A DNA stretch of 64,000 bases from Octopus sinensis (lineage: Eukaryota), in the NCBI RefSeq assembly GCF_006345805.1, contig NC_042998.1, forward strand, positions 123,628,001 to 123,692,000, in the 5' to 3' direction. A model generated the notes under the pieces. It made no database searches, was not told the DNA's origin, and saw nothing but the letters and a program-made list of their open reading frames with translations. A program made the translations under genes and the position numbers. Of the stretch, positions 2,690 to 40,190 are shown one piece after another; position 1 is the first letter of the stretch; every line of letters begins with the position of its first letter.

Positions 2690-5585
2690 ACATCCTAAAT
2701 AAAATAGTCAATAACCACATCGAAATAGACATCTTCTGTAAGCCCACAGATTCAAAACAATACTTATTATTCAACTCCAAACACATAATAATTAATATAA
2801 CCTTATAATCTAGCGAAAAGAATCTGTACTATAGTTTCGGACACCTATACTCGTGAACGAAGACTACTTGAATTCAGATCAATACTAATGAAAAGACATT
2901 ACCCAATATCATTAATAAATGATGGCATTAAACGAGCAAAGGAAATAGACATACGAATATTAAGGGAAGTCAACCGAAATACTACACCAGACTTAAAAAT
3001 GCTCCCATACATCTCCACACACAACCCTAGAAAGAATGAGGCCTTCAGCATCATTATCCAAAATCTAACCATCCTCACAGGAGATAAAACAATGAACAAA
3101 CTTTTAGGCTCACACAAAATTATCAAAAGCAAAATGCAACCGAAATCATTGACAAAAATATTAACCAGCGCAAGACTATATCCATTAACGACGGAACTAA
3201 AAGTGAAAAAAATGTGGTCGACCTAGCTGCGGCACATGCTCCCAGCTTTTGTGGGGTTCGGAGTTCCACTTTAAACAAGGTAAAATATTTAAGATTGAAT
3301 CAAATTTCACCTGTGCCTCGAGAAACCTTATCTATGCCATTACCTGCTTCGGATGCGGTAATCAGCACATTGGCCAAACACGAATATTACTCCGTCGAAG
3401 AACCACTCACAACAAAGAACAAATCCGCCATCCACAATATATCTCCGTCCTCAGTCACTGGTTCTTTCTCTATATGTTTTATTTTCCATTTCTACCCTAC
3501 TTCTCAGTCTGCCACTTCCATCGAGCCCATCCTCGATACCACTTCTCCTCCGCCTCATGTTTTCAACCATCCTCTCTAATTTAAAAATATGAACCCATGA
3601 CGGATTTCTCTTACTTGCCTATTTTATCGTCTTTTTCTACTGCTCCGATTCGCTGTCCACTTCACATCCGTTTCATCCTCCACCTCAACCGCTTTCTCCA
3701 CGACTTTCTTGCTCGCACCAAGCACTTCAAATTCCAATCATCCCTCCATCTTGTCCCACACAACGTCAGTACACCCACCACCTCCCCCACTCCTGATAAT
3801 GCCTACCAATCGCACCCAAACCCCACCACTGACCACTTACTTTTCCCCCCTCCCCTGACACCCCGCACCTATTGCCTCTTCTTTCCCTATTCATCTCAGC
3901 TGACTGTACCTACCATCACACCGTCCCCACCACCATTTTACACCATTTCCACCCCTCTTCCCTCTGCTGTGACTAATCCGTCTCAGCTTCCGCCATCTGC
4001 AGCTGGGCTTTTTCTCTTTAGTAGAAGGTCCAACACTTTGTGCACCGTGTCAGACTACATTCTCCCGTCCTACATACATCAAGCTGTTCAACTCCTACTC
4101 ATCGTCTCCGCAAGCTCTCTAGTAAGCGCTATGGCGGACAAATCACATCAGGGTTATAATCCACCACTGTTATCCAAGCGTCAGTCCTCTCTACTCGCAC
4201 TCGTCATGACCTTACCCAGCTCCCAATTCGCCTTAACCCCCATCCCCTCAACCTACCCCACCAATACATTACTTTTCCCGCTTTCTGTCATCTCAACTCT
4301 TCTGGGATCACGCCCGCATCTTCCCCAACCCGCCTTTCCCTTCTTGCAAACGTGATTGCATCGTAACTGACCGACTAGTCTGTAGCTCTTTCCTCGCGCA
4401 CGGCACTCAACCTTGCAAATTCCCTTGCTCTCGCCTATACTGCTGCTCTTATCACTTCCTCTAACGTCAGCGTCCTCACTGGTACACACAACTGTTTCAT
4501 CTAAGTCACCGACTCCTTACACCTTAAGTAATCCTATTAACCACATATCCTCCTCACTTCGCCACGCTGTGTATTTTGGACAAACTAGTCGATATCAGGC
4601 GGAGCCTTTGCCGAGTGCCTTCGTGACCGCTGACTCAGTAACGACACCACAGTCCCACGCCATTTCTGCTCAACTAGTCTTTCCTGCAACATCTGTACAA
4701 ACCGTCTTCGTCTGAAGCTAGAATTATTTTTTCTTCCCCGACTTCAATCCCTCGCAGTCGAAATCATCACCCCTTTTGATTTAAGCCTTTCCTTCACACA
4801 CACTTACAGACACCACCCACCACTTACGATTCCTCTGTCTCAATTTCTAAGTTCCACACACTAACACTACAATATTGAACTCACTGCCTAACACCACACG
4901 CACACCAACACATTGAAACTGCATATGCATAAAGTTGCATTTATACATTACTTCTTCCTACTCCACACACACTGCCACCAAAAATTCCATTATTTTCCTC
5001 GTGATACCTACCTTTGCAATTAATATATAATAACACACCTACATTTCCCAATTCATACAACTTTTCTCACCTTTATTCCACATAACATCTCTATCAAGTA
5101 TCATACACACACGCCCAAACATACGCAGTAGAAAGGCACACTATAGCTTCATACACAGACATGCACTTTCACAGACACACGTATGTCAGATAGCCTCACA
5201 CAAACACACATAAACCGAAACATGGACACACACATGTATATGAACATGCAGAAACACAAATATACAAACACACATCAGCCTCACACACGCGCACGTGCTC
5301 GCTTTCATACATATAGGCCAGATTCCTAGTTTGCGCCATGCCATCCTCGCCACAAGTCACTTCTCCGAGTTATGCCTCTTGTCAACGACCACCCCCACCG
5401 AACGCTTCGTACTTCTGGTCACTTCAGCATTCGTTGGCTGTTTGAGACACGTTTGTTCTTTCTCTCTCGATTTTGTAGAAGAGCATATGCTGGAAGCCTA
5501 AAAGAATTTTGCTTCTGCTTCCCTGAAGTTAAACTTGATATATTTTATTCGTTTTATTACCTCGCTTTGGCGTTGTTTATAAACA
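2690..5585 (+). mobile_element. 5'-truncated Neptune-like PLE: RT thumb and GIY-YIG remnant, long C/T- and CA-rich 3' region
   Basis: Frameshifted remnants LDIL..IDIFCKPTDSKQYLLFNS, LPYISTHNP and FTCASRNLIYAITCFGCGNQHIG (GIY-YIG with internal CxxC) over ~2690-3440, homologous to the element at 36512-37555. The 3' limit is tentative. Confidence 0.8.
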
Positions 5586-14229: not shown

Positions 14230-16180
14230 CTATATAGTAAATATATCTATCAAATGAATAAATAAACACACACCGAGACAGCAAAAGCAACTCCACAGCA
14301 TCTGAAACATAATTAAGTACCCCAACAATTTATTCCAACAAAAAAAAACCCGCACCATCTACTTCCAACCAATTTACCCAGACAGCAATACCAGTCTCCT
14401 AGCAATCCTAATATAATTAATAAGAATTATAACTCTAATAAATCCTACCAACTAAATTACAGTAAACAATATTTTAGACCAAGTGGAGAGAAACAAAGAC
14501 GCGCGTTAGCACAATACATACAGGAGAAATACAAAGTAACATATTTATCAAAGAAAACTCTCTATGCAACCAAAATTCCTATACTAGCTAAAGGATTAAG
14601 ATTTGCCACAATCCCATGAAGATCTAACCAGAATGAAATTAAAGACAATATTTCGGAATTCTGCAGAGAACTACGACTCACAGAGTACAACAACGAGTAT
14701 GAACCACTAGTTAAAAACAGTAGTAATTATATTTCACCAAAAGCTAAGAATAAAACATTAGATGACTTCTGCGACCATATACAAAATTTCCCAAATACTT
14801 TCCATGAGTGAAAACTTAATAGAAACCTCAACAATCTAGAATCGAAAAAATTTAATTGAACTACAAAGCGACAAACAATTGACAATTAAAGAAGCAGACA
14901 AAGGAAGTGCTGCAGTCCTGATGGATACAGGTTACTACAGAATTCTAGTTTTATCCATGCAAGAAAATGATATCTTCTACGAAAAAATTGTAAACTATAA
15001 ACAAGAAAATCAATGGAAAATCTTCCATCCTTAATACTACTACATGGAAAAGGCCTGATAGAAAAAAAGGCGACTTCACGTTAAGACCCATTATCGCTGG
15101 CCCAGCCTTTGGAACCCACCGCCTAAGCAATTTTCTAGACATCCCACTGAAACCCTTGACGAAATTACATAAAACATTTCATTAGAGATTAAAACACTAA
15201 GGGCAACAAAACGTAACACCACGCCTCATCTCAAAATACTACTGTATACATCAACTTATAATTCTAGAAACAATGAAGCTTACAACATATTGTACAAAAT
15301 TTACCAACGCTCACTAGAAATCCAAAACTAAACTACATTCTGAAAAACATAATTTTATCAAATGCAATATGCAACACAAATCGCAAGAAAAGATTTCTAA
15401 CAAATGCAAAGCTTTACACAACTACGAAACCAGCAGTTAAAAATGTAGGCGGCCAAACTGTGGAAGGCTCGGAATTTCTATTCAAAAAAGGATGGAGGTT
15501 CATAATTAAAACAAACTTCACTTTTGCTTCCGAGAATATAATTTTTGTTAAAGCTTGCTCAGATTGTGGACATAACTACATAGGACAGACACGTATGACA
15601 CTGAGACGGAGAACCACACTACGTAAGGAACAGATCTGGTTCCCGCAAAACAGATTCCTTTGAGTGAACACATAGAGAGATGTGCAGGTAATATCCAACC
15701 AAACTTCACAGTCTTCGCCATCTACTAATGCAAAGAAACAATGTCTAGACAAGAACGTTAAAATAAAGAAAACTTGTTCTTCAAAAACCCCACAACACGT
15801 CTAAAAATGAACGCATAACCAACTTTCATCTCAGCATATATTTTAAGTCATGATCACATACTCATCACTGTACACTTTACTTCTCACTACTTTAGCTTTC
15901 GAGTTTTTTGTGCATATTTATACCATCCGAAAGATGATTAGCTGCCTCTCTTGTCTCCAATATTAGCGATCACCATTTACCTCTCCTTAGCTTCTTCTAC
16001 TTGTTGAATCATTCATTCATAAACTTCTCCACGTACAACATAAACTAAAATCTTAAGGAAATACGAAATTACAATTATTTCAATGTCATGATTAGCGAAA
16101 GCAAAACCGGTCGACAAACATAATATAAAATATACAAAAGAATATATTAAAACTAAGTGTGTGCATTTTCGTTCTCTTCT
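14230..16180 (+). mobile_element. Decayed, internally deleted Neptune-like PLE
   Basis: Remnants ILAKGLRFATIP, FCRELRLTEY, IKEADKGSAAVLMD (PLE DKG motif), LRPIIAGPAFGTHRLSNFLDIPLKP and TNFTFASENIIFVKACSDCGHNYIGQT (GIY-YIG); decayed HHR at 16084-16116. Confidence 0.85.
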
Positions 16181-16312
16181 TATATAAATATATATCACGT
16201 GATCACGTGAACGACCAGACCATCAGATATTGTTTCACATCGCTGGTCACAATGCGTTCGCATTGTTTTAGCCTTCGAATGACGCCAACCCGCTGGCTAA
16301 GCGAGCGGGCCA

Positions 16313-16351
<39 letters not shown>

Positions 16352-16352
<1 letters not shown>

Positions 16353-17221
16353 TTTATTTTAAGCAGCAGAAAATTCAACAAAATCTGTTACTCTGAGTTT
16401 CTCGTTGCCGTTCATCAGACAGTTTTTGCTAGAATGGAACTTATATATTAATTCAATCTATACTCTTACAAACGCTACACCTTTAAAAAGAAATGGACTT
16501 GTTTGATTGGCCCTTTAGAAAAAAAAAACGGTCAATCTTCGAGCGATAAACAAAAAGGTCAAAGATATATGTATATATATATAAAAAACTTATAAAAATT
16601 ATAAAATCCGAGGAGAAAAAAAAACGAGGAAAAAACCTATTGCCGTTAATGAAGACAGTACAAATTAATGCATAGAAATTAAACCTGTTATAAATACTGC
16701 AATACATATTTATATTAAAATCTACATATATATATCAACATACACAAAAGGATGCGCGTAAACGCCATACATACATATACAGACGTATGAATATGAATCT
16801 AAATATACACATAAAAGCATGTGTACATATATTCACGCAAACCGTCTCGCACGCAAGCTAAAATTCATCTATGTAGCAATTCTCATATACTAAGCAAGGA
16901 GGGGGAACGAAAGAAAGGGAAAGAGAGAAAAAGGAACGAAGGAGGGGTGGGGAAAAAACTTGTAACGATGTTATTGGCATCTATAGAGACCAGTATACAT
17001 ACACAAGTTTGAATTGATACATATACATACCGTCGTGTATATGTGTGCTTAAGCACAAGCATACTTTCACTTACACATACACGGATACGCATGCTTACAA
17101 ATACATATGCCTTGCTATACACATACTTATATAAACATTCTAATTTTGACAACATTGCTTTTTTTAAAAAAAAACATTGCTTTTGAAAAATGGGTGCATT
17201 AATAAAAATTTATACGAAAGA
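16352..17221 (-). repeat. Left inverted arm (inverted pLTR)
   Basis: Reverse complement of 18326-19191 apart from a few substitutions and homopolymer/microsatellite slips; mirrored ORFs 16821+/18536- and 16883-/18348+ confirm it. Confidence 0.95.
16379..16428 (-). ncRNA. Hammerhead ribozyme, inverted copy in the left arm
   Basis: Exact reverse complement of 19115-19164. Confidence 0.85.
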
Positions 17222-17283
17222 AATTGAAGATATTCTTCTACCTTCATTGCTGACTAAGTTGCTAAGGATAACTGGTAAGGATA

Positions 17284-18108
17284 ATTTCTTCGGACGAGGC
17301 AGAATTCCATAATGCTGCACCTTATTACGATAGCGCATTAAAGAATAGTGGATTCTCGGAGAAAATCCAGTTCAACCAGCTTAATGCTAATTATAATAAT
17401 GCTGCACGAAGAACTAGGACCAGGAAAGTTTTATGGTTCAACCCGGCTTTCAATTTGGCCGTAAAGACTAATATAGGTAAGGAATTTTTGAGATTAGTCT
17501 CTAAGCATTTTAAGCAGGGCCATAAATTCTACAGAATATTTAATAGAAGAACCCTGAAGGTTAGCTATTCTTGTTGCAGAAATTTCGCCTCTTACATTAG
17601 CCAACATAATAGGAAGCTAATTGAGATTAGACATGGTGCCGAGCCCATTAAGAAATGTAATTTCAAAAACGAAAGCTCCTGTCCGTTAGAAGGGAAATGT
17701 CTAGTGAAAGGAGTAGTTTATAGAGCCAAGGTGCAAGTGGAAGGCTCATCGGAATACAAGACATACACAGGGGCTTCAGAAAATTCATTTAAAACAAGAT
17801 TTTATTCTCATAAGAATTATTTTAAATACCCAGAGAATAGGAAGAAAACCAGCCTAGCAAAATATATCTGGGAACTAAAAGAAAAGAAAGCCCCACCTTT
17901 CAACGTGACATGGAGCATTCTGGACAGGGCGGCACCATACAGGCATGGAGCTTACAAATATAATTTCAAGTGCGAACTTTGCCTATTAGAAAAAATGCAC
18001 ATCTTATTCAAAGACAATAATTCTTTGAATCAAAGAAGTGAGTTAATGAACTTATGTAGGCACGCGGCTAAATTTAAAATGTCGAATATAAATATACCAT
18101 ATGGATAG
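17284..18108 (+). CDS. C-terminal part of a Naiad-like PLE polyprotein (RT thumb end, linker, GIY-YIG endonuclease); 5'-truncated
   Basis: Open frame ISSDEAEFHNAAPYYDSALKNSGF...RKVLWFNPAF..VKTNIGKEFL...KVSYSC..N...CPLEGKC...VVYRAKV...YTG....FKTRFYSH...TSLAKYIWELK...CELCLLEK...LNQRSEL...CRH. These motifs, without CxxC inside GIY-YIG, fit the Naiad clade. The ORF-track TTG start at 17455 is not the true start. Confidence 0.85.
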   Translation: MSSDEAEFHNAAPYYDSALKNSGFSEKIQFNQLNANYNNAARRTRTRKVLWFNPAFNLAVKTNIGKEFLRLVSKHFKQGHKFYRIFNRRTLKVSYSCCRNFASYISQHNRKLIEIRHGAEPIKKCNFKNESSCPLEGKCLVKGVVYRAKVQVEGSSEYKTYTGASENSFKTRFYSHKNYFKYPENRKKTSLAKYIWELKEKKAPPFNVTWSILDRAAPYRHGAYKYNFKCELCLLEKMHILFKDNNSLNQRSELMNLCRHAAKFKMSNINIPYG

Positions 18109-18325
18109 AGTATATAGTTTGTATTTTTGATTTTTGGTTTTGATTTTGACTCTTGAGCGCTACGACGGATTTATAGCAAAGTCTTATGTTTCTACATATA
18201 TATTAGGAAAAACCTACAAACTTTGTTTTCATGTTATTGTATTGCATAGGATTACCTTGATTATTTATATTACCTAGATTATTTATAAATGACCCAAAAT
18301 AAGATGTTATATTTTATTTTATATG

Positions 18326-19191
18326 TCTTTCGTATATATTTTTATTAATGCACCCATTTTTTAAAAGCAATGTTTTTTTTTTAAAAAAAGCAATGTTGTC
18401 AAAATTAGAATGTTTATATAAGTATGTGTATAGCAAGGCATATGTATTTGTAAGCATGCGTATCTGTGTATGTGTAAGTGAAAGTATGCTTGTGCTTAAG
18501 CACACATATACACGACGGTATGTATATGTATCAATTCAAACTTGTGTATGTATACTGGTCTCTATAGATGCCAATAACATCGTTACAAGTTTTTTCCCCA
18601 CCCCTCCTTCGTTCCTTTTTCTCTCTTTCCCTTTCTTTCGTTCCCCCTCCTTGCTTAGTATATGAGAATTGCTACATAGATGAATTTTAGCTTGCGTGCG
18701 AGACGGTTTGCGTGAATATATGTACACATGCTTTTATGTGTATATTTAGATTCATATTCATACGTCTGTATATGTATGGCGTTTACGCGCATCCTTTTGT
18801 GTATGTTGATATATATATGTAGATTTTAATATAAATATGTATTGCAGTATTTATAACAGGTTTAATTTCTATGCATTAATTTGTACTGTCTTCATTAACG
18901 GCAATAGGTTTTTTCCTCGGTTTTTTTTTTTCCTCGGATTTTATAATTTTTATAAGTTTTTATATATATATACATATATTTTTGACCTTTTTGTTTATCG
19001 CTCGAAGATTGACCGTTTTTTTTTCTAAAGGGCCAATCAAACAAGTCCATTTCTTTTTAAAGGTGTAGCGTTTGTAAGAGTATAGATTGAATTAATATAT
19101 AAGTTCCATTCTAGCAAAAACTGTCTGATGAACGGCAACGAGAAACTCAGAGTAACAGATTTTGTTGAATTTTCTGCTGCTTAAAATAAAG
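18326..19191 (+). repeat. Right arm (3' pLTR)
   Basis: Partner of 16352-17221. Confidence 0.95.
19115..19164 (+). ncRNA. Minimal type I hammerhead ribozyme in the PLE pLTR
   Basis: caaaaaCTGT-CTGATGA-aCGgcaaCGa-GAAA-CTCaGAG-TA-ACAGattttg: intact CUGAUGA/GAAA core, GUA cleavage triplet (19152-19154), stem I CTGT/ACAG, stem III with a 1-nt loop. The first stem II pair is an A-A mismatch. Confidence 0.85.
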
Positions 19192-19260
19192 CATATTACT
19201 CTACCACTGGTATTTGAGTACTCTTTTTTCCACCTTGTTTCACATTTATGTGTTTAATCC

Positions 19261-19331
<71 letters not shown>

Positions 19332-19419: not shown

Positions 19420-21500
19420 TTCTGTTGATATGTAGAAAAGCAACTAGATTTATTACTTTTGAAGAATAAAGCAAAGAGAAGGCTTAAACAATGTTAGAAA
19501 TGCATGAAAGCGACAGAAACTTAGTGATTTTGAATTTTCTTGACTATACTTCAGACTTCACATTTTAATCAACAGAGATAAAACAAACAAAATCCAATTC
19601 AGTCAGACAAACTTGGGCTCATTTACAGGATTCAAAATTATGCAGTAACATATTTACAAAAGTAGCCTATAGGGTAGGTGCTGATGATTTTACGGACATA
19701 AAATACTAAGACATAAAACTGCACAAATAATATGAAGAATCCAGAAGCTACAAACATACGAATGTTTGGAAAGAACTGATTGGGTGCTTTACTATACGAG
19801 ATAATGCTGAAAATTTCTGGCTTTGGGTAAAATAATAATATACAGGATTTTATACAACATTTCCCCTCTCAGATTCACACATTTATAGCAGTGATCCTTC
19901 AGGTTTTCTAAGCCCTGTAAGAGATCTCGCAAGTTTGGGTTTCCAATCCGACCTTTCGCGATACCCTAACAGTACTTTCCGCTGAGGAACTTTTCAGGAC
20001 CACACCTCGTACTCATATTGATTTGATGTAACCAATAAAGAAGTAGATTACCACATCGTTTTAAATACAAAACAAGAAATATCTACAAATTTCAGTAAAA
20101 TATACATTGTAACTGGTCTGATAATGTACAAGACACATCGCTTCGGTAATTTATCTATATTCCTTGCTGAAACCTTTCGTGAAAAAATATATATATCAAA
20201 GCTTTATAAGAGACAATTCCAATATGCTTAACCTTTTACTAAAATAGACAAAAATACCTCCGTTGTTTCATTTGATGTATTAAACAAAATTACGCAATTG
20301 AAATTATCAACTACTGTTTCGAATCATTTATTCATGATCTACCAAACTGCATCAATAAGGACTTTATTACTGATGGGTTTCGCTTTACTTCAGAAAATAC
20401 ATATTTCATATTCAATCAAACAACTTGTCGGCAGATAGCAGGCACAGTTGCAGAAAACAAAGTTGTATTGATTTACGCTAATCTACTTTGGGGATATGAT
20501 GAAGTTAAAATCTATGAACAAACCTCACAAGTATTTGCGAATAATTGCAGTATTTACTTGAAAAGGAACTGGATAAGTTTTCTGAAGGATTGAATCACTT
20601 CATGGAGGAAAATTCTTGATCAACTAAACGACTTTTAAAATACGATGAACAATATAAAGCTTCTCATCTAATTTACTAAGGATTACATGAACAACAACCT
20701 CGCTTTCTTCGGTATATAGTGACTAGAATAATTTAAAATTTAGAACCTTGTACATAATCTATATAAAAAAGTTAGCTGCTCACGTGCACATTTACTTCTC
20801 AAAAATATGATTTTACATTTGATATATATGAGACAAAAAACTTTGTACTATAGATTCGAATCTTCCCACAACAAGTTATAGACTACAATAAATATACCAT
20901 TTGATAGTGAAATTCATAGAGTAAGGCAAATCTACAAAGAAATAAGCAAACTAGCAAAAATGAGAGCTCTTATGTCATATGTTTTGACGGCTTATAACCC
21001 AATGGACGCTGGGATTTCGAGACGAATTCATCAAAACTTAACTAGATGAACAAAATATGAAAATAAATATGACAATACAATCTAGGTATTAAAAGTAAGA
21101 GGCAAAGACTTTAAAAAGTACGAAAGTGATCAAAGCAAAATTTACAGGCAAAATCCATGGATCTAAGAGTCAGTAAATGTTGTCAACCAACAGACAGAAT
21201 ATGCTATTTATTTTAAAAACGAGTCACCTTTCATTTCAAGGAAGGATTTGTTTTGTTTCAAAGTTAACGGTAACTTATGGTAACAAGTATGGATTGCATG
21301 AAACATAGCTGCTAAACAACTCTATTCTGTAGAAAAATGCCATTACACTGAAAACAAATTAGAATATTAAAACTCTCGTTTGTCAACTTACGGATACCTG
21401 GGACAAATGTATTTTCTTGTTTTAAAGATTTTGCGTGTCACCAAGGAAATAGCACTGGATAAACAAGGAAAAGTTGTTTATACATAAATATATACCAATA
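19420..21500 (+). mobile_element. Heavily decayed Neptune-like PLE (RT region)
   Basis: Remnants VVSFDV (~20262-20280), QIAGTVAENKVVLIYANLLWGYDE (cf. QISGTAIGTRLAPTFANLAIAYLE in the 37568 element) and KRNWISFLKD (cf. NWKRYLDD). Boundaries are approximate. Confidence 0.6.
19795..20011. mobile_element. Mariner-type MITE nested in the decayed PLE
   Basis: Ends TACGAG..TGCTGAAAATTTC and GAACTTTTCAGGACCACACCTCGTA form imperfect TIRs with TA termini. Confidence 0.7.
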
Positions 21501-26134: not shown

Positions 26135-26712
26135 ACAACACAGCAGAGAGTGATAAGTGCAGAATCTGTGGACAAAACTGTGAAACCGTATGGCATATTA
26201 CCAGCCAATGTACGCCACTAGCCCAGAATGAATATAAGAGACACTACGACAATATAGCCAGGCTTGTCCATTGAACACTCTGCAACAAGTATGGACTTGA
26301 CAGAGCAAAAAATTGCTACGACCATAAACCTGAAGGCATCGTCGAAAATAGAAATGCAAAGATCCTATGGGATTTTATGATCCAGTGCGACCATCAGACA
26401 GAGAATAGGAAGCCGGACATAGTCTTATTTGAGAAAGAAAACAATCTCTGCTGGATCATAGATATAACATGCCCAGCTGACAACTATAAGGAAGAAAGAA
26501 AGGTTGAGGGATATGACAGGTTAGCTTGGGAATTTAAGCAGTTTTGGCCGATGAAACAGGTAGAAGTAGTACCAATAATTGTCGGAAACTTAGCAACAGT
26601 GAGCAAAAATCTCGAGAAGTACGTGGAACAAATAGGTGCTGCAATAAATGTAGAGCACTTGCAGAAAAATGCTTGGAACCGCTCGAATACTCCTGAAGGT
26701 GCTCGAAAAATA
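26135..26712 (+). mobile_element. R4/Dong-like non-LTR retrotransposon 3' fragment (CCHC knuckle plus restriction-like endonuclease)
   Basis: [19 protein letters not shown] (CCHC), [40 protein letters not shown]; stops and frameshifts present. Confidence 0.88.
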
Positions 26713-26724
26713 AGACAGTTATTA

Positions 26725-27155
26725 AAGAGAGGCAAGAAAATACTTGTAGACTAACAGATGTGTTCCCACTGATAAGAATATATCTTTAAAGGAATTCAAG
26801 TAAATATAAGGTCCTGAAAATTTAAATACAAAACATGTGGCATCTTAATGTGAGAACTGTACCTGGTATTGTTGGTACTCTAGGTATGATAAGAAAGGGA
26901 CGTCAGAAACATCTAGATAATATCTAGAACCATGTGTCAGAAAATCCAAAAGGTTGTGCTAACAAGTACTGCCCACATCCTTAGAAAAACCGTACTAGTT
27001 TAAACATATATGTTCTTTTACATGAAGATATTTCGCTACTGCTCCTGCCGTTCCCCCCACAAGCTTTCAGTCATACTGCAAAATCTCTAGCCCACCACTC
27101 GTCCTAGGACAGTGGGTGTGTCCCGGCGAGTGATTGTAACAAACATATAATAATT
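26725..27155 (+). mobile_element. Second, distinct R4/Dong-like 3' end with 3'UTR
   Basis: Remnants VPTDKNISLKEF, MWHLNVRTVPGIVGTLGMI and IQKVVLTSTAHILRK repeat the same endonuclease C-terminus in a different sequence. Confidence 0.75.
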
Positions 27156-35392: not shown

Positions 35393-37555
35393 TTTGTAAA
35401 AAATGAAGTTCGAAAATGCTGCTGTATTATACAATTTTTAATTTTTATATATACATTATAACATGTTTCAGTTCCTGAAATGAACCTTATCAAAAAAAGT
35501 TATATATAAAAAAAGACAGCTCATGCCGTCAAACACAAGAAATTCATTTATAATACACAACTGAGTCAGACATCTTAGAGTTCATGTATAGTTGATATAT
35601 AGTTCATGTATACTTGATATATAGTTTGAAGTATATGTTCAAAGTGTTCGATGCAGTAGCCCACGGTGGCGATACGTAGTCAATACAAAAAACAGATCAA
35701 AGTGGTGGAAAGCGGTCAATACAGAAGATTGATGTTTCCGAAAGAGCGAGGAATTCATTTTTACCTTAAGCAATTGTGATGACCCATGGTGGAAGTTCGC
35801 TGGGTGGTTCTAGTGAGTTTTTGTGAAATGCTCGGTTTTAAAATGCCTGTTAGGTGGTCAATCTAGCGTAGCGTGACGTCATCAATGTTTTGACCAATCG
35901 TTTCGTTAGGTGGCTTTAATCAAGTAGAACGGGACGTCATCATTATTTTGACCAATCGCTGCATTATAACTCCCTCTTGTTTGTTTCCTGTTTTGACCAG
36001 TCGCTTCGTTAGTCAAGTAGAACAGGACGTCATCATTATTTTGACCAATCGCTGCATTATATCTGCCTCTTGTTTGTCTCCTGTTTTGACCAGTCGCTTC
36101 GTTAGTCAAGCAGAGCGGGACGTCATCCAGATTCTGCCCAATCACGACTTATAGCTACATTAGATCTGCCCCCTGTCTGTACTTGTTAGGTGACTATTCA
36201 AGCAGAAAAGGACGTCATCAATATTCTGACTAATGACTGTCCCCTGTTTGTATCCTGCCCATTCTAGCAGAGCTAGACGTCATCAACTTGTTGACCAATC
36301 AGAATCGGGTCTGATTCGTACGTATCGTATGTATCAGGGTCAGATTTGCACGAAAGAATTTTTTTCCCTTTTTTACTAAGGCATATTTCCGTCAGAGTGA
36401 GTGTCTGTTTGAAGCAGCGGCCGTGGTGGAACCCCGCTTCTCTCTTTCGGAGGACTTATCTTTTGTTTTAGTATTCCTGGCCCAGGGTGTTTAAACTTGG
36501 TCTAAATTTTTTTATGAAATATAGTTCTTTGTTTTGGCGTTGTCACTGAATTTATAGAGCGGGTTAGTTGTAAATTTCGGATTTACATTTCCAGCACATC
36601 TATCTATGTGTCCGCTGACCGGTATTTTGCGGTAATCAGGGTTTCTAATTTGTGATTTATGCACCGCCATCCTGTTACGTAAGCTATTTTTTGTATGGCC
36701 TATATACTGCCTATTGCAGCCTGCGCATGTTATGACGTAAATTAAGTTTTCTGATGCGCAGGTGAAGTTTGTTCTAATGGTGAACTGGTGGCCTTGTTCC
36801 AGTATAAATTCTGATCCTTCTTTCAAGATGACACAGATTCCGCAGTTGGGCCTTCCACATTTTCTAACTGCTGGTTTTGTGGTTGATGTTGAGTGCAGTG
36901 TAGCTTGGGTTAAAATCCTTTTCAAGGATTTTGGTTGCCGTTTACTTTTAATGATGGTGTGTGTTTCGAGGATCCGGTTCATCTTTGGGTCTCCCTTAGT
37001 AGGGCTGTGCTTTGTAGTATGGTGTTGAAGGCCTCATTGTTGAGTGGGTTGTGTGTAGAGATGTAGGGAAGGGTTTTTAATTGTTCTTTCTTTTTTGGTT
37101 TTGTTTGTCTCAGGTCTTCTATACTTAATTTAAGTACCCGTTGGATTGCACTGTCTATTAGGGGCTGTGGATAGTTTCTATTTGTGAGTGTGGTTCTAAG
37201 TTCCTGGAGACGTGTGTGTCGGGTGTTTGTGTCTGATATTATGGTGCAAATCCTTCTAGCTAAACAAAAAGGGACATTCATTCTAGTGTGTCGTGGGTGG
37301 CATGAATCAAAGGGTAGGTACTGTTTAGAGTCTGTCGGTTTATAGTAGATATCTGTCTCTATTTTGTTGCCGGTTTTCTTAATGAGGATGTCTAAAAATG
37401 GTAATTCTTTTTCGTTGTGGTCCATCGTGAATTGTATATTGTCATTTATTCCATTTAATAGAATTTTAAATTCCTCAAGTTTCTCTATGCCTTTGTCCCA
37501 GATGATGAAACAGTCATCGAGGTATCTTTTCCAGTTGTTATGGATATAGGTGGCG
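35393..37555 (-). mobile_element. 5'-truncated Neptune-like PLE (RT C-half, GIY-YIG, 3' region) between (TA)n tracts
   Basis: NWKRYLDDCFIIW (catalytic YLDD), FTMDHNEKELPFLD, TDIYYKPTDSKQYLPFDSCHP, KCGRPNCGIC linker, FTCASENLIYVITCAGCNRQYIG, R...H..HIDRC; one frameshift near 36980. Confidence 0.93.
35872..36302. repeat. Array of six GACGTCATC-N8-T(G)xCCAATC modules, including a ~93-bp tandem duplication
   Basis: Modules begin at ~35875, 35933, 36026, 36119, 36211 and 36276. Confidence 0.85.
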
Positions 37556-37567
37556 ATATATATATAT

Positions 37568-40190
37568 CAAGGGTTCAGGAGAGTTAAAAATTACATGTTT
37601 AAACCATCAAAGGTTCGAATATTCACAGAATTTTCAATGCGTTTCGCAAGGATCGATATCAATATCAATGTTGATGTTCAGTGAACATCAGAACAAATGT
37701 ACATTATTAAAAGTTCAGTCATATTGTGTTCTTATAAAATAAGTAGAGAAGAAAAAGAAAAAGGTGGCGAGAAAGAAAAAATGGTTATTTTACACTTTCT
37801 TTCGTGGTGCGTGTAGTTCTTTTCAATTTCAGTCTCAGTGCACTGGTTTCTTCACCTTTCAGGGCTTGTTGAAATACATTGTGTTCAACCTTTTAGTATA
37901 TATATGTTTTTGCGAAAAAGAATTTAATATTTGATTGGTTATGATTTTGTTGACGTCTTATTCTTTTCTCGTGGATACTTTGGTTAAAATATTTTTGTTT
38001 TGGAAAAGTTTAATGTTTTGGTCGGTTGGCTTTCTGGTGATGACCACGGTCAAGGAACAAGTTCTGATTGGTTGTAGATTTTGTGATCTCACTTTATTTT
38101 GATCAAAAATATTTCCCGTTTTCGACAAAATATTTTTGTTTCGGTAACATTCAGCGTTCTTCTTGGTTGACTTCCTTGTAGGGATTCGGTAAATTGTTTT
38201 TGCTTGATGGTCGTCTAACGTTCTGGCTGGTTGGTTCCTTTAAGAAGTCACTGTTTGCTTTTTTCTTTGGGTCTGGTCTGACAAGAGGAAAAATTCATTG
38301 TTTTTGTCATATGTGACGTCAGCAACTAGTCTTTGAAGTGCATGCTGTTATTGTATAATAATTTGGAGTTGGGTTTTCGAATCCCTGGGGGAGGCTGTTA
38401 TTTAAAGCTTTCGAATTATATTTGTTGTATCTGGTCGTTTTTCGCGGAAAAATTGGGTTTTCTCTTTCTAGCGTGTTATTATAGGATATTTAGTTGAGGT
38501 TTCTATTTTTTAATGTGCATCCTTTTCACTATTCAGTTGGAATTAGGTTGAAGTGTTTCCGGTACTTTGATAGAGACGGCAAATTTGGTATTTCGGATTT
38601 ATGAGCTAAGTGTTTGTTTGCGGGAATTTTCCTGGTGGTGGGTTCCCAGATCTGCTGCCTATATACCGTGGGTCTGTCTCTCAAGGTCAAGCTAGCTAGA
38701 CCGATACAGCCCCCACCACACCCACCATTTTACGATGCACGGGTGAAGTGACTTTTTATGATCAATATTTGACTTGACTTGAAACTTCCAAAAGATTGAT
38801 GCAAATACCGCTTTTGGAGCGGTCGCACTTTTTGACTAGTGGGTTTGTATTTTTGGTGGGTAATTTGGCGCTGGTAAGTAAACTTTTTAGGGATTTGTGT
38901 TGTCTTTTACTTTTAACAATTCCATGTTCTTCAAGTGCTTTTTTCCCTCGCAGGTCGTTCAGCAGTATATTCTGATGAATAATGTTGTTTGCTTCCATGT
39001 TCTTTGGATTGTGTGTTGATACGTGAGACAAGGTTTTTAAGTGTGTCATGGTGTTTTCAGCGTTTTTGTATGTTTTATTCCATCTTTGATTAAATTAACA
39101 AGGTACTTTCTTTTTAGAAATATATTTTTAAGTTCTTGGTGTCGTCTATATCGAGTTTCGGGATTTGATGCAATCGTGCAAATTCTTCTTGCCAAATTGA
39201 AAGGTTTATTGATGTTAGTATGCTTTGGGTAGCAGGAAAATAATACTCGATATTGTTTCGAGTCTGTTGGTTCCAAACAGATGACGGCTTCAATGCTAAT
39301 GTCTCTTTTTAAGATTAACGTGTCCAGAAAGGGTAGCTGTTTGTCACTGTATTCCATTGTGAAATGGATTCGGTGGTTAATGTTGTTGATTAAGGTTTTA
39401 AATTCTAAGAGTTGCTCAAGCTTATGTGACCACAGAATGAAACAATCGTTCAGGTAGCATTTCAAGTTGGCAAATAAGTATTTTTGGAAGTTGTCGCCAA
39501 ATTTTAGTCTAGCGTGTTCATATATTTGGACTTCCAAGTATGCTATGGCAAGGTTAGCGAAAGTAGGGGCTAACCTCGTTCCTATCGCAGTCCCCGATAT
39601 TTGTCTGTTGGTGTTCTCGTTGAATTTGAAGAAGTTGTTCTGTAGGATGAATTGTGATCCCTCAATGGTGAATCCTCTTCCAAATCGGTCAGGAATGTCA
39701 TTTGGGAATTTCTTCCGTCAGTATTGTACAGCTTCTGTTCCGTATTCGTGAGGCATCGAGGTGTAGAGGTTTATTACATCGAGTGAGACCAGAAGGGATT
39801 TCTTGCTGGTTTTGCTCCAGAGATGGTGTAAAAATGTCCAGGCCATCGCTTGCGAAATTGGTATATGCAGGAAAGCAGGTTTTAGGAGGACGTCAATAAA
39901 GTTACTGAGTCTGTGTCTCACAGGATGGACCGTCCACAATTGGCCTCATTTTGAAATTTCTCGGATGTGGAATATTTATGACTAAACAAATCAATGTGCT
40001 TCAGACTCCCTTTATGGCTTCCGTTCTTTGGAATTCGGGGAGCCCATAAGGTTACTGGTTTTGTAGTCAAATCTAGTTAAGTTAAACCTCTCCTCAGGTA
40101 AATCTTATTGGAACTGATAGATAAGGGCTTTGCATTTTTTGGATTGACTATAGTTGTCGATTTTTTCGCAGTAGGTATTGTCTTGTCTTA
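37568..40190 (-). mobile_element. Second, more decayed Neptune-like PLE in tandem orientation
   Basis: HRLSNFIDVLLKP, LVSLDVINLYTSMPHEYG, QISGTAIGTRLAPTFANLA, KCYLNDCFILW, FTMEYSDKQLPFLD, PFNLARRICTI, VKKCDRSKSGIC; many frameshifts. Confidence 0.9.

What the first reader, a model, noticed from the sequence alone, without database searches (positions are those of the whole stretch)
16352..19262. Young Naiad-like retroelement with ~870-bp inverted arms, each carrying a hammerhead ribozyme
Seen: near-identical inverted arms around an uninterrupted GIY-YIG frame, a tail on one side only, (TA)n on both sides, and an intact HHR core near each outer end. Known: PLE pLTRs carry minimal HHRs, and 5'-truncated PLEs often have an inverted 5' pLTR and a 3' tail. 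Inferred: the low arm divergence and open frame indicate a recently active cephalopod Naiad family. A read-through transcript from either strand would contain one sense HHR and could fold into an ~870-bp dsRNA stem, a potential ADAR/Dicer substrate.
Basis: partly seen in the sequence, partly recalled or inferred. Interest (0 to 1): 0.75.

Follow-up and report, generated by a model that had tools for sequence, protein, structure and literature searches.

The report
Hydra-type Penelope jumping gene, head-to-head copy
The mirror-image arms and their two hammerhead ribozyme motifs are real, but they are the two cut-short halves of one young insertion of a known kind of jumping gene (Hydra clade of Penelope-like elements, not Naiad), and its many sister copies suggest that both halves were likely copied from one RNA starting at two fixed points.

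Summary
Observation confirmed: 870-bp inverted arms (98.4%), one ~70-nt tail, (TA)n flanks, a hammerhead motif in each arm, and an open but ATG-less 278-codon thumb/GIY-YIG frame. The Naiad label is wrong. Full-length sisters encode a 711-aa TERT-like RT with a C-terminal GIY-YIG, RWK/DKT, no CCHH, and a hammerhead: Hydra clade (Craig 2021). The same layout is in print for Penelope-13_HM, and this scan noted it and the stubs below on other DNA. The family is young (arms 0.59% apart; thousands of ends genome-wide). Sister copies record the mechanism. All 41 resolved inverted units join one tail-less and one tailed end, and the two arms share a haplotype. About half of all arms stop within ~16 nt at the hammerhead's 5' edge, not at its cut site, and paired arms stop together. 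Best reading (inferred): both nicked target strands prime, at two sites ~70 nt apart, on one uncleaved RNA, and the cDNAs join head-to-head. Here one cDNA jumped to where the other ended, leaving a 59-nt inverted ORF piece. No evidence for dsRNA or ADAR action. New member of a known kind.

The parts
16318..16351 (.). left (TA)n target run
16352..17221 (-). inverted arm: cDNA started at the tail-less ('N') end, covering the last 870 nt of the 3' UTR/pLTR
   Evidence: the same end in 67 of 79 long loci and 1153 exact matches genome-wide
16373..16435 (-). hammerhead in the inverted arm (core C at 16418, predicted cut after 16389; Inr-like A at 16435)
17218..17276 (-). 59-nt inverted ORF piece (PVILSNLVSNEGRRISSIS) that overlaps the start of the direct copy by 8 nt; joined to the arm by a 4-nt exact microhomology
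   Evidence: junction crossed by an X1 contig
17277..17282 (+). 6-nt filler that repeats nearby sequence at the head-to-head joint
17283..18108 (+). 5'-truncated ORF: RT thumb, linker (CxFx5C), C-terminal GIY-YIG with CxxC and CxH; no usable ATG
   Evidence: fold matches I-TevI GIY-YIG Z 9.5, rmsd 2.3, 89 aligned
18109..19191 (+). 3' UTR/pLTR; 18323-19191 is the part mirrored by the left arm
19108..19170 (+). type I hammerhead (core 19125-19131, predicted cut after 19154); its 5' edge (A19108, Inr-like CCATTC) is the family's truncation hot spot and the inferred RNA start
19192..19263 (+). ~70-nt tail = first part of the element's 5' UTR, between the two priming sites; ends at the tailed ('T') end
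   Evidence: 3596 exact T ends genome-wide
19264..19328 (.). right (TA)n target run

Best explanation
This is a young, 5'-truncated, non-coding insertion of a Hydra-clade Penelope-like retrotransposon in a (TA)n run, likely made by two target-primed reverse transcriptions on one uncleaved RNA. Shown: the parts, the family's domain order, the two fixed ends, their one-to-one pairing and the truncation hot spot. Inferred: the GIY-YIG nicks both strands of (TA)n; one 3' end primes at the tail-less site (19191) and the other ~70 nt downstream at the tailed site (19263); both cDNAs run towards the RNA's 5' end and are joined head-to-head by microhomology. RNAs that start at the element's own start site (about 19108) give ~200-bp stubs by run-off; read-through RNAs of tandem copies give long units like this one. 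Here the tail-less cDNA ran 870 nt, re-primed where the other cDNA ended, and added 59 nt before joining.
For: Clade: 711-aa ORF with RWK, DKT, YRDD and C-terminal GIY-YIG in full-length sisters; AF2 model pLDDT 90, best PDB match TERT 3du5 E 5e-9; window's C-terminal domain matches GIY-YIG nucleases in 4 of 4 rows with Z>=5; the published Hydra alignment and hammerhead table match by eye. Two ends: 41 of 41 resolved inverted units have one tail-less and one tailed end (22 and 19 in the two arrangements; 79 unique loci examined, of which 29 scored direct, 5 cut by the fetch, 4 damaged). Same source: arms differ at 40 of 1821 common polymorphic sites against 570 expected for random copies. Run-off: exact 20-mer counts 3386, 2962, 1407, 1183 and 577 going 5' along the element; loss per nt 0.0385 at the hammerhead's 5' edge against 0.0007 in the body. 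No arm end lies at the cut site among 63 ends. Arm fates are linked: 18 of 27 divergent pairs on contig C1 have both arms stopping at or after the edge (7.5 expected), and only 5 of 41 partners of long arms stop there (21.6 expected). In 7 of 8 units with a third antisense piece, that piece straddles the start of the direct copy. Two RT start sites flanking the tail and an uncleaved template were shown in vitro for a Poseidon PLE (PMC11167929).
Against: No RNA 5'-end data; the start site is inferred from DNA ends and an Inr-like motif chosen after the fact. The stem I helix also ends at that base, so structure-caused termination predicts the same edge. Shared haplotype could come from two RNAs of one source locus or from later gene conversion. 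All 5 substitutions between the window's arms lie on the inverted arm, one of them a variant seen in 11 segments. In vitro, PAc showed no difference in start site between strands. Two cDNAs on one RNA need strand displacement, which is not shown. My first idea that the tail-less site is always used failed: 5 of 20 tailed-end loci have no tail-less arm. Clade rests on diagnostic motifs; no RT tree with named references was built.
Confidence: 0.6

Rival explanations
1. Same element and two priming sites, but the two cDNAs come from two RNA molecules of one source locus, and the hot spot is termination caused by the hammerhead helix (cDNA hairpin), not an RNA start.
For: The extended stem I helix ends at the same base as the hot spot; 5 long units have a short arm ending at 3279-3300 of the reference while the partner runs on for kilobases; the shared haplotype needs only one source locus.
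Against: Independent termination predicts about 22 of 41 partners of long arms in the hot spot (5 seen) and 7.5 of 27 double stops (18 seen). The cDNA hairpin is weak (-6.4 kcal/mol). The third pieces straddle the partner's end in 7 of 8 cases.
Confidence: 0.22
2. The inverted arm arises by self-priming: one cDNA or an antisense template folds back and copies itself (proposed in PMC3846280), or the template is a hammerhead-cut and re-ligated circle (proposed in PMC4209133).
For: Near-palindromic joints occur (L036, L046 and many stubs); units longer than one monomer exist (L053, L071, L099); the hammerhead is under purifying selection (0 of 40 polymorphic sites against 142 of 996 in the 3' UTR, P 0.004).
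Against: In 11 of 19 tailed-arm-inverted units neither arm contains the other's sequence, so neither can be a self-copy. In the window, the 59-nt piece is not present in the direct copy. A circle has no 5' end and does not explain the stop at the hammerhead's 5' edge. Circles may still template some long copies.
Confidence: 0.12
3. One reading: a Naiad element whose hairpin acts as a dsRNA substrate for ADAR or Dicer.
For: Naiads share the tandem/inverted layout, tail and (TA)n bias, and occur in octopus. The arms could pair over 870 bp if read through.
Against: The endonuclease is C-terminal and a hammerhead is present, both against Naiad. No A>G excess or hyper-edited segment in the copies. 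No host reading frame of 130 aa or more was recognised in the window (short exons not excluded).
Confidence: 0.03
4. Assembly fold-back artefact.
For: Such structures trouble assemblers; the second junction was not bridged in the rows shown.
Against: Arms differ at 5 substitutions and 5 gaps, ends are asymmetric in the same way as 40 other loci, and a contig of X1 crosses the first junction exactly.
Confidence: 0.03

Closest known systems
Hydra clade of C-terminal EN+ Penelope-like elements (Craig et al. 2021, PMC8557442; read: abstract, sections 5, 11, 12, 15, passages of others, parts of the supplement)
   Same: RWK, DKT, C-terminal GIY-YIG without CCHH, CxxC and CxH around the conserved E and N, canonical-type hammerhead, (TA)n target. 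Penelope-13_HM has a 5'-truncated inverted copy of 966 nt with a hammerhead on each strand. The Hydra-2_aMil hammerhead has the same stem I, core and stem III.
   Different: A different family from Hydra-1_Obim (about half identical over the first 45 residues, counted by eye; other hammerhead). Monomer 3353 bp against <3 kb; 3' UTR about 1.08 kb; tail about 70 nt against 30-40; stem II only 2 bp; second linker Cys is Phe in 56 of 78 sampled copies.
Poseidon PAc of Anolis (Frangieh et al. 2024, PMC11167929; read: parts 1-2 of 4)
   Same: Two RT start sites that flank the tail, both target strands nicked and extended, AT-rich target, hammerhead cleavage not needed.
   Different: Another clade. 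The parts read report no strand difference between the start sites and no one-to-one pairing of ends, linked truncation or run-off stubs.
Adineta vaga Penelope insertions (Arkhipova et al. 2013, PMC3846280; read: 10 passages)
   Same: [quoted passage not shown]
   Different: They propose self-priming for the inversion; 11 of 19 units here cannot be self-copies.
Naiad PLEs (PMC8557442)
   Same: Tandem/inverted layout, tail, (TA)n bias, cephalopod hosts.
   Different: N-terminal endonuclease, CCHH, about 1000 aa, no canonical hammerhead.
L1 twin priming (recalled, no call)
   Same: A second primer anneals next to the first cDNA's end and leaves an inverted piece that abuts the direct copy.
   Different: Here both primings start at fixed sites near one end of the element, and the inverted arm duplicates the 3' end.

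Membership tests
Penelope-like elements | Single ORF with telomerase-like RT and GIY-YIG endonuclease | tested here: met
   711-aa ORF in sisters; best fold match TERT; GIY-YIG fold. Pfam alone gave no hit; 4 of 40 aligned relatives hit GIY-YIG.
Penelope-like elements | pLTR partial tandems, inverted 5' copy, tail | tested here: met
Naiad | GIY-YIG N-terminal to RT | tested here: not met
   EN is residues ~580-690, after YRDD at 344
Naiad | No canonical hammerhead | tested here: not met
   Hammerhead present and nearly invariant in about 141 segments
Naiad | CCHH motif in the endonuclease | tested here: not met
   No Cys pair between the two GIY-YIG strands and no second His in the sequence
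Hydra clade | C-terminal GIY-YIG lacking CCHH, with CxxC and CxH around E and N | tested here: met
   C667xxC670, E673, N686, C695xH697, conserved in 37-39 of 39 relatives
Hydra clade | RWK and DKT motifs | tested here: met
   RWK at 37-39; DKT in 8 of 10 long frames (EKT, DMT in one each). These lie outside the window copy.
Hydra clade | CxCX5C linker | tested here: inconclusive
   Window copy and 56 of 78 sampled copies read CxFX5C; 20 keep the G of the Cys codon (one of them Ser); Cys is invariant in 39 of 39 relatives. The motif is present in the family and altered in this copy.
Hydra clade | Hammerhead in pLTR and insertion into (TA)n | tested here: met
Hydra clade | Placement in an RT phylogeny with named references | not tested
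   The reference proteins were visible only as supplement text and were compared by eye
Active hammerhead ribozyme | Self-cleavage at GUA | not testable with these tools
   Core intact, stem II minimal; genomic copies cross the site uncut

The most novel reading that the evidence does not exclude
This family is an in vivo record of how Penelope-like elements integrate: the two nicked target strands are assigned one each to two start sites ~70 nt apart on a single uncleaved RNA. That one rule gives the one-sided tail, the head-to-head repeats, the thousands of ~200-bp hammerhead stubs (run-off at the RNA start) and the straddling third pieces. The hammerhead is kept under selection although it is not cut in the RNAs that are copied, and a lineage lacking an otherwise invariant linker cysteine still lands in (TA)n.
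Probability: 0.45. Interest if true: 0.55.

Novelty: new member of a known kind. Interest (0 to 1): 0.3.

Why it matters
The locus itself is an ordinary dead copy. The family matters because the formation of PLE tandem/inverted structures and the role of their hammerheads are named as open questions (PMC8557442 section 15). A young family with thousands of ends and several open full-length frames gives counts that a mechanism must explain (one tail per inverted unit, linked truncation, no ends at the cut site) and a direct in vitro prediction. It also explains why such genomes are full of small palindromes with two hammerheads.

Tried and rejected
Rfam at gathering score: 0 hits. Pfam on the window frame and on the full ORF: no family. 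PDB by sequence and by profile: nothing. Foldseek on the EN model: no E<=0.001; the VIA search found the fold. ADAR footprint in copies: none. 'Tail-less site always used first': rejected. Stubs as one amplifying MITE-like family: unlikely, their inner joints mostly differ. Splice acceptor at TAG 19112-19114 as the cause of the hot spot: some ends include the bases before it, not excluded for all. Phe-linker copies as a clean young subfamily: not supported, other variants are shared between the groups. Depth in runs guessed to be RNA was 20-22 times higher over the hammerhead than over the ORF, against about 6-12 times in X9 and X1, but contig depth cannot show level, strand or start, so it is not used. 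X9, X14 and X16 did not show the window's own junction; contigs cannot show absence. SECIS/selenocysteine was a lead from the Naiad label; the long frames are open without in-frame TGA, not pursued. No tRNA gene in the window. Paper searches listed no paper whose read parts state a strict one-to-one pairing of ends or run-off stubs; subscription papers on Penelope structure are not in the library, and the bioRxiv supplement of 10.64898/2026.07.22.740005 (read: part 1 of 5) could not be seen. PMC4209133 (read: parts 1-2 of 4) already notes opposite-strand hammerhead pairs 100-700 bp apart. PMC13282606 (read: 3 passages) names no Hydra family in its main text; its repeat library was not seen and may hold this family.

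Full report
1. What is in the window. The arms are real: 16352-17221 on the minus strand matches 18323-19191 at 98.4%. Both outer ends abut (TA)n, and only the right end carries the extra 19192-19263. Each arm holds CUGAUGA...GAAA with a palindromic 3-bp stem III, a GUA triplet and a long stem I; Rfam does not score it. The frame 17272-18108 is open but has no Met until 37 residues from its end. Between the left arm and the direct copy lie a 59-nt piece of the ORF in reverse, which overlaps the direct copy's first 8 nt, and a 6-nt filler. A contig of run X1 crosses the arm/ORF-piece joint without a difference at depth 42; X1 may be the source sample, and the second joint was not bridged in the rows shown.

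2. The family. The window lies in a 2.72-Gb genome; 139 scored copies are 85-100% identical to the window frame (a lower bound). I fetched 80 loci: 20 chosen for long frames or tandems, 60 next in rank. Mapped on one natural copy (L031), the monomer is 3353 bp, the ORF 711 aa, and the tail is the start of the 5' UTR. Ten of 78 loci hold an open frame of 700 aa or more (enriched by my choice). Recurrent ORF variants are 57 synonymous to 32 non-synonymous, singletons 117 to 297, so source copies were under selection. Median distance to the majority base is 1.1% (109 segments); arm-to-arm distance is 0.43% (median of 31 pairs; 0.59% here; 2 pairs identical). With the rate implied by PMC13282606 (JC 0.09 = 25 My), and if the host is an octopus, this insertion is roughly 0.8 My old. 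The stretch is held by runs under six organism labels.

3. Clade. Naiads are defined by an N-terminal endonuclease and lack canonical hammerheads. Here the order is RT then endonuclease: the AF2 model (pLDDT 90) best matches TERT, and the window's last 159 residues match I-TevI, EndoII and UvrC GIY-YIG domains (Z 9.5, 7.2, 6.5). RWK, DKT, no CCHH, CxxC/CxH, hammerhead and (TA)n are the Hydra definition and are met. The supplement lists an octopus member, Hydra-1_Obim, a different family by eye, and Penelope-13_HM with a 966-nt inverted 5' copy and a hammerhead on each strand. No tree was built.

4. What the copies record. (a) Two fixed ends. Of 79 unique loci (two duplicates dropped), 41 are resolved inverted units: 22 with a tail-less inverted arm and tailed direct end, as here, 19 the reverse, none with two like ends; 26 direct-only copies end tail-less, 3 scored direct end tailed, 5 were cut by the fetch and 4 are damaged. 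In the first 100 tailed ends listed genome-wide no two lie in opposite orientation within 10 kb, nor do the first 100 tail-less ends (read by eye). Tailed ends (3596) outnumber exact tail-less ends (1153), partly through a common variant in the latter pattern; 5 of 20 tailed-end loci have no tail-less arm, so either site can be used alone. (b) One source per unit: 40 of 1821 common polymorphic sites differ between arms, 570 expected (31 pairs). (c) A truncation hot spot. Exact 20-mer counts fall from 2962 to 1407 over 16 nt at the hammerhead's 5' edge, about 50 times the rate per base in the body. Of 63 arm ends in 40 loci picked along contig C1 (10 of them picked because they were short), 34 lie in the first 21 nt from that edge, 13 inside the ribozyme, 3 beyond the cut site and none at it. 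(d) Linked fates: 18 of 27 divergent pairs among the first 100 listed matches have both arms stopping at or after the edge, against 7.5 expected; only 5 of 41 partners of long arms do. (e) In 7 of 8 units with a third antisense piece it straddles the direct copy's start. (f) The hammerhead has 0 of 40 polymorphic sites against 142 of 996 in the 3' UTR.

5. Mechanism. Frangieh et al. showed in vitro that a PLE nicks and extends both target strands, starts at two sites that bound the tail, and does not need hammerhead cleavage. The counts above fit a stricter version (inferred): one site per target strand, one RNA, cDNAs joined head-to-head by microhomology. RNAs that begin at the Inr-like base 19108 give stubs; read-through of tandems gives long units. 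In the window the tail-less cDNA stopped after 870 nt, re-primed by microhomology at the other cDNA's end and added 59 nt. Fold-back self-priming cannot give 11 of 19 tailed-arm units. Two RNAs with structure-caused stops remain possible; a circular template may serve some long copies but does not give the hot spot.

6. The dsRNA idea. A read-through could pair over 870 bp, but nothing shows one. No host frame of 130 aa or more was recognised, singletons show no A>G excess and no segment is hyper-edited, and contigs cannot give strand. On either strand the sense hammerhead is transcribed after its complement.

7. Verdict. Clade call about 0.93; dead truncated copy, shown; one-RNA twin priming about 0.6. 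The layout is in print, and earlier notes of this scan describe it and the stub hot spot on other DNA (read after my own counts). The strict pairing, linked truncation and straddling pieces were not found in the parts of papers read. New member of a known kind; interest 0.3.

Noticed in passing
genome-wide; examples L115, L118, L124, L131-L140, L145, L146: A large share of the family's insertions are 170-240-bp head-to-head stubs whose arms both stop at the hammerhead's 5' edge; about half of all arms end there.
   Followed up: yes
window 17660-17662 (linker codon): The second Cys of the CxCX5C linker, invariant in 39 of 39 relatives, is Phe in 56 of 78 sampled copies (sample ranked by likeness to this copy), which still sit in (TA)n. 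Bears on the idea that the linker targets microsatellites; help in trans is not excluded.
   Followed up: partly
window 16190-16312, minus strand: A very high-copy ~120-nt repeat directly left of the (TA)n run (summed contig depth about 1e6 in X1 and X9) with a head that looks like a tRNA-derived SINE (recalled likeness; ARAGORN finds no tRNA).
   Followed up: no
window 2801-3226 (+), 14840-15663, 36512-37566 (-), 39046-39717 (-), 20022-20593: Older, broken Penelope-like fragments of other clades; 36512-37033 hits Pfam GIY-YIG (E 7e-6) downstream of an RT-thumb-like frame.
   Followed up: partly
window 26275-26754 (+): Fragment that resembles the restriction-like endonuclease end of a non-LTR element (recalled likeness; no Pfam hit).
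   Followed up: no
supplement File S2 of PMC8557442: A YCAKT Inr-like word lies within 27 nt before the hammerhead core in 8 of about 25 Hydra rows (7 of 11 outside Hydra magnipapillata), counted by eye and after the fact; older copies here read TCAGTT six bases before the hot-spot edge (L117, L143).
   Followed up: partly
L127, L130: Short stub-plus-(TA)n units repeated in tandem two or three times (300 bp and 172 bp), resembling a step towards a tandem retrozyme.
   Followed up: no
both element ends, all loci: At both priming sites the element has C where the target has T or A, next to a 2-5-nt match with TA: priming with a short, imperfect match.
   Followed up: partly
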